Positions 1,895 through 7,312 of a DNA stretch of 64,000 bases are shown in pieces. The notes beneath the pieces were generated by a model, which was given only the letters and a program-made list of their open reading frames with translations, made no database searches and was not told where the DNA came from. The translations under genes were made by a program, and so were the position numbers. The DNA is taken from the NCBI GenBank assembly GCA_042408215.1, contig JAYFMW010000006.1:1-64000 (forward strand), given 5' to 3'. This DNA comes from Microcoleus sp. Its GTDB lineage: Bacteria > Cyanobacteriota > Cyanobacteriia > Cyanobacteriales > Microcoleaceae. How positions within the stretch are numbered: the first letter of the stretch is position 1; each line of letters begins with the position of its first letter.

Positions 1895-3195
1895 TTGACA
1901 TCCACCCCGCGCTCTCTGCGACGGGGATTCCTAAGACTCACGACTTAGGTTTCTGTTTCATAGCACCAGCCTTAACAGATTTACTCTGTTCGGGTCTTAC
2001 AGTCGCTCCACAGACATTAACCGCAAGCCCTGCGGCCAGAATATTTTTAGCAGCATTTACATCTCTATCGTGATGTGTACCGCACTTAGGACAATCCCAC
2101 TCTCTGATATTTAAAGGCAACTTATCAACGATATGTCCACAATATTCACACCTTTTAGAGCTAGGGAACCATCGGTCAATTTTGACAAAAGTACGACCAT
2201 ACCATTTGCACTTATATTCAAGTTGCCTGACAGTTTCACCCCAAGCAGCATCACTAATCGAGAGAGCGAGTTTTCGGTTTTTGACCAGATTCTTCACCGA
2301 CAAATCCTCGACGGCAATCACTTGGTTTTCACGAACCAATCGAGTTGTCAATTTGTGAAGAAAATCATTGCGTGCATCGCTAATTTCAGCATAAACTTGA
2401 GCGACTTTCAATCTGGCTTTGTGGCGATTATTAGATCCTTTTTTCTTGCGACTAAGCGCTTTTTGAACTTGACGCAACTTACGACACTTTGCTTTGAAAG
2501 TTTTAGGATTAGTAATTTTTTCACCATTACTCAAAGCCATCAAGCTAGTAATACCTAAATCTAGACCAATTTGATTAGGAGATTCAGGCAATGTTGCAAT
2601 CTCAACATCTACTAACAAAGAGACTGTCCACCGTCCAGAGGGCGAGAGCTTCACCGTAATGGTTGATATTTGGGCACCTTCTGGAAGTTCACGGCTCCAT
2701 CGGATTTCCAATGGTTGAGAACATTTTGCTAAATACACTTTGCTATCTTTCCATCTGAAAGCAGCTTTAGTGAATTCAGCATTGCCGCCGTGATGCTTTT
2801 TCTTAAAGTTAGGGTATTTTGCCCGTCCTGCAAAGAAATTAGTGAACGCAGTTTGTAAATGCCTCAATCCTTGTTGTAATGGCACACTGCTAACTTCATT
2901 AAGAAACTGCAAGTCTTCTTGTTTTTTCCAACTGGTTAGCATTGTTGAAGTTTCAGAGTATCCGACTTGCTCTTTTCGTTCATACCATGCCTCAGTCCTT
3001 GCGGCTAATGCACGGTTATAGACTAATCGAGCGCAACCCATCGTTCTCCTAAGCAATATTTCTTGCTCAGGCGTTGGATATAATCGGTACTTAAAAGCTT
3101 TTTGTGTCATGCTTGGATCATATCTGATATTCTGTCAAGTATTTAATTAATATAAAGCCGTCCTAGAAGGACGGGGTTTTAAACCCAATTTCCTG
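1895..3195 (-). mobile_element. IS200/IS605-family (IS1341-type, tnpB-only) element
   Basis: Minus strand: TTAT|CAGGAAATTGGGTTTAAAACCCCGTCCTTCTAGGACGG left end; right end GGAATCCCCGTCGCAGAGAGCGCGGGGTGGATGTCAA. Confidence 0.85.
1938..3110 (-). CDS. tnpB: RNA-guided endonuclease TnpB, canonical RuvC triad
   Basis: KAFKYRLYPT N-terminus, GLDLG, AVEDL, CEYC/CPKC zinc ribbon, HDRDVNAA. Confidence 0.95.
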   Translation of the reverse strand: MTQKAFKYRLYPTPEQEILLRRTMGCARLVYNRALAARTEAWYERKEQVGYSETSTMLTSWKKQEDLQFLNEVSSVPLQQGLRHLQTAFTNFFAGRAKYPNFKKKHHGGNAEFTKAAFRWKDSKVYLAKCSQPLEIRWSRELPEGAQISTITVKLSPSGRWTVSLLVDVEIATLPESPNQIGLDLGITSLMALSNGEKITNPKTFKAKCRKLRQVQKALSRKKKGSNNRHKARLKVAQVYAEISDARNDFLHKLTTRLVRENQVIAVEDLSVKNLVKNRKLALSISDAAWGETVRQLEYKCKWYGRTFVKIDRWFPSSKRCEYCGHIVDKLPLNIREWDCPKCGTHHDRDVNAAKNILAAGLAVNVCGATVRPEQSKSVKAGAMKQKPKS

Positions 3196-6358: not shown

Positions 6359-6480
6359 TATTTGGGAACTATTGCAATGAGGCGATCGCTCAACTAAGTA
6401 AGCCCAGCTAAAAAAACAGAATACCCAGAGCCCCGACTTCGCAGAAGTTGTCGGGGCTCTAAGGCTTGCATAAATCAGTA

Positions 6481-6611
6481 ATATCAATTCCGGTTGCACT
6501 CTTGGAGATGATTGTTGATGGTTGACGGTTGACAGTTAACAGTTAACTGTTAACAGTTAACTGTTAACAGTTAACTCAAATTTACTATTCCGATGCTAAC
6601 GGATTTGATAT
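6481..6611. mobile_element. Small MITE-like element with internal AACAGTT/AACTGTT heptamers
   Basis: Imperfect TIR ATATCAATTCCGGTTGCA...TGCTAACGGATTTGATAT; a related copy lies at 10501-10605. Confidence 0.6.
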
Positions 6612-6616
6612 AAGTC

Positions 6617-6640
6617 CTATACAACAAATATTTTGCTCAT
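6617..6640 (-). pseudogene. iscB: iscB 5' stub (MSKIFVV*)
   Basis: ATGAGCAAAATATTTGTTGTATAG directly after GGAGG at the omegaRNA 3' end; resembles the xVFV start of the IscB PLMP domain. Confidence 0.6.
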
Positions 6641-6880
6641 CAAGAGCCTCCGAATAATCGGGTGATTTGTGCCTTGGTAATGTTAAGAGGGCTTTTTAGG
6701 CTAGCAGCACTTTCTGAGGGAGATAAAAATGTTGAACTACTAGCGACAGAGCAAGGATCTGGCAAGTACCCACAGGGTGTCGTGACCTTCTTAACGTAGT
6801 CTGTGGTTAGACTTAACCGGGCTATATCTTTACTGGGAGAGAGCAGGTTGTCCAGTGGTGTCCAGGAGCTCGCGGATAGC
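6641..6880 (-). ncRNA. IscB-associated omegaRNA (HEARO-like)
   Basis: Minus strand has GCTATC...GATATAGCCCGGTTAAGTC, GACTACGTT, GACACC, TGCCAG, GCTCTGTCG, AGTGCT, AACATT, ACCCGATTATTCGGAGG in the order typical of HEARO/omegaRNA. Confidence 0.8.
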
Positions 6881-6934
6881 ATCTAGAGAGACTTTTAAGC
6901 GATCGCTCACTACATATTCTAAATCAGCTTGTAA

Positions 6935-7025
6935 CTCAACCATCCGCGAGCAAACCTCCAACGGGAGCAAATAACGTCTGATTTTCAGGCGGGCAGAGTT
7001 TGTCTAAATCTCGCTCTAATCCCAC
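6935..7025 (-). pseudogene. 5' remnant of a GNAT acetyltransferase toxin
   Basis: GTG overlapping the antitoxin 3' end reads VGLERDLDKLCPPE, then unrelated sequence and a stop. Position matches the DUF1778-GNAT operon layout. Confidence 0.5.
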
Positions 7026-7312
7026 GGAGATTGTGTGTTTAGTAATGCGTTTAGCTTCTTGTTTGGCGTCGGCGGTGCATCGAGCAACGCCAAAAATTGC
7101 TGAAATTTCAGTTCATCTAACCGAAAAAAACAGCCGTCTAGAATCACATCTTGAGTTTTTTGGTAAGCTGATTCAAGCATGAATTCCGATCGGCTCTTTC
7201 CCTGTAATTCAGCGGCGCGATCGATGAGAGCGCGTTGATTCGGCTTAGCTCGAATGTTGATTGTAACATCGCGGGTCTGGCTGACTGACCCGACCGATGC
7301 TGGCGGGTGCAT
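7016..7312 (-). CDS. DUF1778-family RHH antitoxin (TacA/AtaR-like)
   Basis: INIRA...LIDRAAELQGKSRSEFMLESA...F..LLDAPPTPNKKL..LL.T.SPWD. Confidence 0.9.
   Translation of the reverse strand: MHPPASVGSVSQTRDVTINIRAKPNQRALIDRAAELQGKSRSEFMLESAYQKTQDVILDGCFFRLDELKFQQFLALLDAPPTPNKKLNALLNTQSPWD

What the first reader, a model, noticed from the sequence alone, without database searches (positions are those of the whole stretch)
6617..6900. Orphan IscB-type omegaRNA with a readable guide, left after loss of iscB
Seen: a ~240-nt minus-strand segment (6880 to 6641) with the ordered motifs of HEARO/omegaRNA, closed at its 5' end by GCTATC...GATATAGC pairing. It is followed by GGAGG and a 7-codon MSKIFVV* stub that abuts a MITE end. 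Known: IscB guides lie immediately 5' of the scaffold, giving a candidate guide near GCTTAAAAGTCTCTCTAGAT (6900 to 6881). Inference: the scaffold looks complete and lies downstream of a TA operon on the same strand, so it could be transcribed and load an IscB encoded elsewhere. The ORF track misses it entirely.
Basis: partly seen in the sequence, partly recalled or inferred. Interest (0 to 1): 0.72.

Follow-up and report, generated by a model that had tools for sequence, protein, structure and literature searches.

The report
Stranded IscB guide-RNA relic in antitoxin
This is the guide-RNA end of a small jumping element that carries IscB (the ancestor of Cas9): it sits inside an antitoxin gene at the commonest cyanobacterial repeat, has lost its nuclease gene and far end, and is likely a decaying leftover rather than a working guide.

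Summary
Rfam HEARO matches 6880-6662 (minus) at 82.8 bits (cut-off 83), followed by a 7-codon iscB stub. Two intact sister elements in the genome are 85% identical. Relatives show the empty site: the element landed in codon 22 of an MntA-type antitoxin gene, inside HIP1 (GCGATCGC). iscB, the far end, the rest of mntA and the HepT toxin gene are gone. The upstream 'TA operon' has lost its GNAT toxin. The guide is simply mntA flank. Its only matches are relatives' intact mntA alleles (8 of 29 exact with GCGATC behind); none was found in this genome, phages or plasmids. The scaffold has four broken pairs against the intact copy and no RNA evidence, and 45 of 70 HEARO hits in this genome also lack iscB. 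Best reading: an immobile, decaying relic; a working trans guide is possible (about 15%). The more unusual part is the parent family: HIP1 target, IS607-like phased end repeats, predicted TAM GCGA. This scan noted that family before on other DNA.

The parts
7016..7312 (-). TacA1/DUF1778-type antitoxin gene, open frame of 98 aa
   Evidence: Pfam PF08681, 86 bits
6982..7025 (-). First ~15 codons of the GNAT toxin gene; about 470 nt deleted at 6982/6981. G024 and G006 match across this point without the gap, so the loss likely predates the insertion
6830..6943 (-). 5' part of the MntA-type nucleotidyltransferase antitoxin gene (codons 1-21); it reads on in frame into the element as a 37-aa peptide that stops at 6832-6830
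   Evidence: orthologues of 115 aa with Pfam NTP_transf_2
6881..6897 (-). Predicted guide (16-17 nt of mntA flank directly 5' of scaffold G1)
   Evidence: guide position from PMC9640706; empty-site comparison
6662..6880 (-). HEARO/omegaRNA scaffold. The element boundary lies after G6880 or C6879, inside the former HIP1 site. Two 10-bp-phased TGGACA end repeats start at 6864 and 6854
6647..6661 (-). Short terminal hairpin and GGAGG, identical in the intact copies
6617..6640 (-). iscB stub MSKIFVV*. Similarity to intact iscB ends at 6620. About 1.3 kb of element and about 0.6 kb of mntA tail plus hepT are missing beyond it
6484..6608 (.). Multi-copy 125-bp MITE with short inverted ends and TA duplication; a separate insertion, not the deletion end point
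   Evidence: 11 of 24 pattern matches flanked by TA on both sides
6393..6481 (.). Further multi-copy repeat DNA; sequence shared with relatives resumes at 6392-6389, about 20-25 nt past the hepT stop of G024

Best explanation
This is the omegaRNA end of an IscB element that sits in codon 22 of an MntA-type antitoxin gene at a former HIP1 site and lacks iscB, its far end and the downstream hepT toxin gene, so it is likely immobile and likely decaying rather than working as a guide. Shown by comparison: the empty site in relatives, the breakpoints and the sister elements. Inferred order: (1) loss of the GNAT toxin, (2) insertion at G|CGATCGC or GC|GATCGC without target duplication, likely by an IS607-type serine recombinase supplied in trans, (3) one or more deletions from iscB codon 7 to just past hepT, perhaps favoured because the insertion had destroyed the antitoxin that neutralises HepT (about 40%; neutral loss is as likely), (4) repeat insertions and point decay. 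While intact, the element would have made a guide from mntA flank and cut the empty allele next to a GCGA-type TAM. The filled junction reads GCTA and would be spared by one base.
For: 55 of 78 other genomes of the genus match the flank; none of the listed matches runs more than 6 nt into the scaffold. Of 29 such loci fetched, 25 read GCGATCGC at the junction and 22 keep the mntA frame through its GSX10DXD region. Sister elements are 1.59 kb with intact iscB. No far end or iscB body remains near the window copy. Against the C5 copy the scaffold has 41 of 261 differences, four broken pairs (one in the hand-assigned pseudoknot) and a private A>C in the GUUAAAC motif. It scores 82.8 bits against 95.7-114.5 for five relatives. 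An independent one-ended relic of the same family, upstream of a sigA-like gene in three genomes, has decayed further (46.8 bits for the one copy scanned). No site in the genome pairs the guide's last 8-16 nt with GCGAT. Far ends of this type were found in 17 of 73 IscB loci and all 17 are followed by N-CGATCG. An exact empty site for the G077 copy confirms the junction.
Against: The core 6825-6771 is identical to the intact copies. 21 of the 41 differences are shared with other family members, one pair change is compensatory (C-G to U-A at 6728/6713) and one pair is gained, so much of the divergence is lineage, not decay. The scaffold lies in the sense direction behind tacA with no terminator found between, the orientation that Meers et al. 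link to omegaRNA production. The toxin-removal step is weakened because the TA block is labile anyway: mntA is broken in 7 of 29 relatives without any insertion, and the exact HepT motif was found in only 11 of 29. The IS607 link is indirect: no BLAST hit of the ends near IS607 tnpA genes, and no serine recombinase within 1.5 kb of 80 IscB loci.
Confidence: 0.72

Rival explanations
1. Working trans guide: read-through from the tacA promoter makes the RNA, the two intact sister IscBs load it, and the complex cuts intact mntA-hepT alleles that arrive from relatives, keeping that toxin module out or copying the relic into it.
For: Cognate IscBs with RuvC/HNH motifs are present. The core is identical to theirs. 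8 of 29 relatives carry an exact 16-nt match followed by GCGATC. Meers et al. discuss protein-less elements whose omegaRNAs would be used in trans (said of TnpB). A 226-nt contig of a sister omegaRNA lies at depth 51.8 in RNA run X19 (a weak hint about the family only).
Against: Four broken pairs and a changed conserved motif. Guide and first stem lie in a reading frame that stays open to 6832. No RNA contig carries this allele (only two RNA runs, each with 0.06 of the words). No target in the genome, 50,697 phages, 72,556 plasmids or IMG/VR. The insertion was seen in no other of 78 genomes, and the junction was not found in two collections, so there is no sign of spread or conservation.
Confidence: 0.15
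2. Same relic, but the parent is an ordinary IS200/IS605 (Y1 TnpA) element with an unusual target, not an IS607-type one.
For: IscB is described from IS200/IS605 elements, and Meers et al. found tnpB but not iscB next to serine resolvases. No target duplication fits both families. The IS607 GG core is not met.
Against: The ends lack the GTCA start seen in most other HEARO copies here. They carry 10-bp-phased repeats at both ends. The YGGACA-N4-YGGACA pair occurs 8 times in the genome (1.5 expected): 3 at these omegaRNA ends and 2 in front of IS607 tnpA genes.
Confidence: 0.25
3. The relic was kept by the host for a cis role, such as ending or stabilising the tacA transcript.
For: The deletion spared the whole scaffold and its terminal hairpin; a similar one-ended relic is shared by three genomes upstream of a sigA-like gene.
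Against: It occurs in one lineage only. Relatives without it, or without the whole TA block, exist. No terminator was found on the minus strand.
Confidence: 0.05

Closest known systems
HEARO RNA / IscB omegaRNA (Rfam RF02033; OgeuIscB omegaRNA, PMC9640706, passages read)
   Same: Full-length match to the model; guide lies 5' of scaffold G1; iscB start directly behind.
   Different: 0.2 bit under the curated cut-off; starts GCTATC instead of GTCA; several broken pairs; iscB reduced to 7 codons.
Protein-less PATE-like IS200/IS605 derivatives carrying omegaRNA (Meers et al., 10.1101/2023.03.14.532601, section 5 and passages read); standalone omegaRNAs of Ktedonobacter racemifer (Altae-Tran et al. 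2021, recalled, not held)
   Same: omegaRNA without its nuclease gene, in a genome that holds cognate nucleases.
   Different: PATEs keep both ends; this copy has one end only, so it is a deletion relic and not a mini-element.
ISC2 elements (Kapitonov et al. 2016, PMC4810608, passages with Table 1 read)
   Same: About 1.6 kb, iscB only, no target duplication.
   Different: Listed targets are GT|GG, GT|GA, N|ATGA, CC|CG and the like; none is HIP1. This family has phased direct repeats at its ends.
IS607 family (Chen et al. 2018, PMC6188088, passages read)
   Same: No inverted repeats, no target duplication, short helically phased direct repeats near both ends; the repeat motif is shared with two IS607 elements of this genome.
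   Different: Cargo is IscB, not TnpB; the crossover overlap is C or GC, not GG; no tnpA in the element.
HepT/MntA type VII toxin-antitoxin pair (PMC7641770, abstract read)
   Same: The disrupted host gene is the MntA-type antitoxin, with a HepT-like gene behind it in relatives.
   Different: Only codons 1-21 of mntA remain here; hepT is absent from this locus.

Membership tests
HEARO / IscB omegaRNA | Match to covariance model RF02033 | tested here: met
   Whole model, E 3.3e-17, 82.8 bits against cut-off 83; five family copies score 95.7-114.5
HEARO / IscB omegaRNA | Lies directly upstream of iscB | tested here: met
   7-codon stub identical in protein to the start of two intact IscBs
HEARO / IscB omegaRNA | All stems and the pseudoknot intact | tested here: inconclusive
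   51 of 60 pairs against 54 in the intact copy; 11 of the 60 pairs were assigned by hand
Functional trans-acting omegaRNA | Transcribed as a guide-plus-scaffold RNA | tested here: inconclusive
   Two RNA runs with small shares, contigs only; none carries this allele
Functional trans-acting omegaRNA | Cognate IscB in the genome | tested here: met
   C21 and C5 copies, 445 aa, RRXRR and HNH
Functional trans-acting omegaRNA | Loads IscB and directs cleavage | not testable with these tools
   Needs biochemistry
PATE-like mini-element | Both transposon ends kept | tested here: not met
   The far-end motif occurs at 5 places in the genome, none on C6
IS200/IS605 (ISC) | No target duplication, fixed short target | tested here: met
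   Empty sites
IS200/IS605 (ISC) | Subterminal hairpins read by Y1 TnpA | not tested
   I did not fold the far end or search the genome for Y1 TnpA
IS607 | Phased short direct repeats near both ends | tested here: met
   10-bp-spaced GGACA/CGACA repeats at both ends; motif shared with two IS607 left ends
IS607 | GG dinucleotide at ends and target | tested here: not met
   Overlap is a single C or GC; so not filed as IS607, only as IS607-like
IS607 | Serine recombinase in the element or available in trans | tested here: inconclusive
   None within 1.5 kb of 80 IscB loci; 19 over-cut-off IS607 tnpA matches elsewhere in the genome, the two with the shared motif each holding one TGA

The most novel reading that the evidence does not exclude
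The relic is a live trans guide of an IscB family that is moved by IS607-type serine recombinases and uses HIP1 as both landing site and TAM. Loaded on the two intact sister IscBs it would cut intact mntA-hepT alleles coming from relatives, so a transposon leftover acts as one-spacer immunity against regaining a toxin-antitoxin module, with self told from non-self by one base (GCTA against GCGA).
Probability: 0.1. Interest if true: 0.72.

Novelty: new variant of a known kind. Interest (0 to 1): 0.36.

Why it matters
As a single copy it matters little: orphan omegaRNAs are known and are the majority in this genome. Its value is as a clean, testable record. The empty site is known from many relatives, so guide and predicted TAM can be read exactly. 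It adds an independent insertion showing that this IscB family lands in HIP1 and has IS607-like ends, a pairing I did not find in the papers searched. A GC-rich GCGA(TC) TAM would widen IscB targeting and raises the question of how the nuclease copes with methylated HIP1 DNA.

Tried and rejected
Rfam gathering scan of the window: no hit, because the match is 0.2 bit short. Folding z-scores do not separate relic from intact copies. Order-level DNA search of 401 genomes at E 1e-25 found only this genome, but scored just 2 candidates per genome, so it is weak. Guide searches in genome, plasmids, phages and IMG/VR found nothing meaningful. The 22-nt junction was not found in metagenome or genome contigs (records very near this genome may be left out). 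BLAST of the element ends gave no hit near IS607 tnpA. RNA runs X18 and X19 hold 0.06 of the words and are contigs only: no evidence for or against expression. The idea that the MITE caused the deletion was dropped: it keeps TA duplications on both sides and starts 11 nt from the break. The crude GTCA/other classes printed are not used. Altae-Tran 2021 and Weinberg 2009 were not held; no supplements were read, and those of the IscB surveys may list this family's TAM or ends.

Full report
Observation. The minus strand carries a full-length HEARO match at 6880-6662 (82.8 bits, E 3.3e-17), just under Rfam's cut-off of 83, which is why the gathering scan was empty. Behind it come a short hairpin, GGAGG, and MSKIFVV* at 6640-6617. 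The closing stem is 5 bp plus a C-U mismatch. Contigs of DNA runs X1, X4, X6 and X9 (studies P1, P3, P4) cross the flank/scaffold junction with 0-2 differences, and those of X1 and X4 cross the stub/MITE junction with none, so the arrangement is real. These runs may be close kin of the source.

Family in the genome. The genome has 70 HEARO matches; this one ranks 65th. 25 of the 70 have iscB similarity within 1.7 kb downstream and 45 do not. Two copies (C21:57951, C5:441871) are 85% identical to the window over 6880-6620 and go on into a 445-aa IscB beginning MSKIFVVD, with RRXRR and HNH domains. The closest named holders of this IscB are Microcoleaceae. No iscB body or far end remains near the window copy.

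Empty site. Of 18 regions fetched around this locus from relatives, 14 contain the flank and show what it continues into: an MntA-type nucleotidyltransferase of 115 aa followed by a HepT-like RNase (Pfam). The element sits between codons 21 and 22. Across the genus, 55 of 78 genomes match the flank and no listed match runs more than 6 nt into the scaffold. In the 29 best loci the junction reads GCGATCGC in 25, GCGATCTC in 2, GCGATAGC in 1 and GCAAACTC in 1. The upstream pair is tacA plus a GNAT toxin in relatives; here about 470 nt of the toxin gene are gone, and G024 and G006 match across the same point with mntA free of the element, so that loss likely came first. Shared sequence resumes at 6392-6389, about 20-25 nt past the hepT stop, so iscB, the far end, the mntA tail and hepT are all missing. 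The gap holds a TA-flanked MITE (6608-6484) and other repeats. Losing MntA would leave HepT unmodified (PMC7641770, abstract), which could have favoured the deletion. But the block is labile without any insertion (mntA broken in 7 of 29; exact HepT motif in 11 of 29), so I put that at about 40%.

Parent element. An exact empty site for the G077 copy places the junction at G|CGATCGC or GC|GATCGC without duplication. A far end of this type was found in 17 of 73 IscB loci examined (of 80 fetched), and all 17 are followed by N-CGATCG. HIP1 occurs 5,097 times in this genome. Both ends carry 10-bp-phased repeats, kept in the window copy. The pair YGGACA-N4-YGGACA occurs 8 times against 1.5 expected: 3 at these omegaRNA ends, 2 before IS607 tnpA genes. 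Phased repeats and no duplication are IS607 traits (PMC6188088, passages), but the GG core is not met, direct BLAST of the ends found no IS607 neighbour, and no serine recombinase lies within 1.5 kb of 80 IscB loci. I took the IS607 lead from earlier notes of this scan on the intact copies. Meers et al. report tnpB but not iscB beside serine resolvases. Searches for IscB with IS607 or HIP1 and for HIP1 as an insertion target showed no paper describing this pairing in the listings; I read only listings there.

Guide and TAM. With scaffold G1 at 6880, the guide is 6897-6881 (16-17 nt suffice for OgeuIscB; PMC9640706, passages). The empty site predicts a TAM beginning GCGA; the filled junction reads GCTA. 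OgeuIscB needs purines at TAM positions 3 and 4, so one base would protect the filled allele; this is inference from a different IscB. The 20-nt guide has no other match in the genome under 4 mismatches, and no site pairs its last 8-16 nt with GCGAT. Plasmid, phage and IMG/VR searches were empty of meaningful hits. The only targets are relatives' intact mntA alleles: 9 of 29 match 16 of 16, and 8 of these have GCGATC behind.

State of the scaffold. Against the C5 copy there are 41 differences in 261 nt; 21 are shared with at least one of 7 other family rows and 20 are private. Four pairs are broken (6875/6826, 6769/6758, 6725/6716 and the hand-assigned pseudoknot pair 6765/6669), one is gained, one changes on both sides, and the conserved GUUAAAC reads GUUCAAC. 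The score is 82.8 bits against 95.7-114.5 for five family copies. The core 6825-6771 is unchanged. So this is a sister lineage with added decay, damaged but not destroyed.

Expression. No minus-strand promoter or terminator passed the scan. Read-through from tacA is plausible, and Meers et al. note that IscB omegaRNAs depend on such outside transcription. The mntA frame stays open through the guide and first stem to 6832, which would put ribosomes on them. No RNA contig carries this allele; run X19 has a 226-nt contig of a sister omegaRNA at depth 51.8, which speaks only to the family and cannot show strand or level.

Verdict. A real omegaRNA and a one-ended relic, most likely drifting (0.72); a working trans guide aimed at incoming mntA alleles is not excluded (0.15). 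The orphan state is of a known kind. The parent family, with HIP1 target and IS607-like ends, is a variant I could not find in print and that this scan has already noted on other DNA. Interest 0.36.

Noticed in passing
L087, L088, L104 (G052, G009, G051): A second one-ended relic of the same family (omegaRNA plus a short iscB stub) sits at one shared site about 150 nt upstream of a sigA-like gene in three genomes; it is absent from G000 at that site and scores 46.8 bits in the one copy scanned.
   Followed up: partly
run X12, laid on window 6620-6892: A 327-nt contig has 19 differences, the listed ones being intact-family bases, and 54 further letters beyond 6620: either a filled allele that still has iscB, or an assembly chimera across the identical core.
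   Followed up: no
L085:1501 and L110 element starts: Two family copies begin GCGATC instead of GCTATC, which would restore the predicted TAM at their own junction; neither has a full-length iscB frame.
   Followed up: no
G000 C3:172214-172618: A 405-nt member of the same family keeps both ends and an omegaRNA but no iscB: a true mini-element.
   Followed up: partly
G000 C6:994266 and C19:98782: Lone omegaRNA-end (about 80 nt) and lone far-end (about 30 nt) fragments of the family, showing that one-ended remnants are common.
   Followed up: partly
G000: Most other iscB-less HEARO copies start GTCA and share conserved tails, so they look like two-ended mini-elements, unlike this copy.
   Followed up: no
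window 1938-3110 (-): Open 390-aa TnpB gene (Pfam OrfB_IS605, HTH, zinc finger).
   Followed up: no
window 6866-6669 (-): 6 of the 20 private substitutions are A>C, an unusually high share; independent runs carry the same bases.
   Followed up: no
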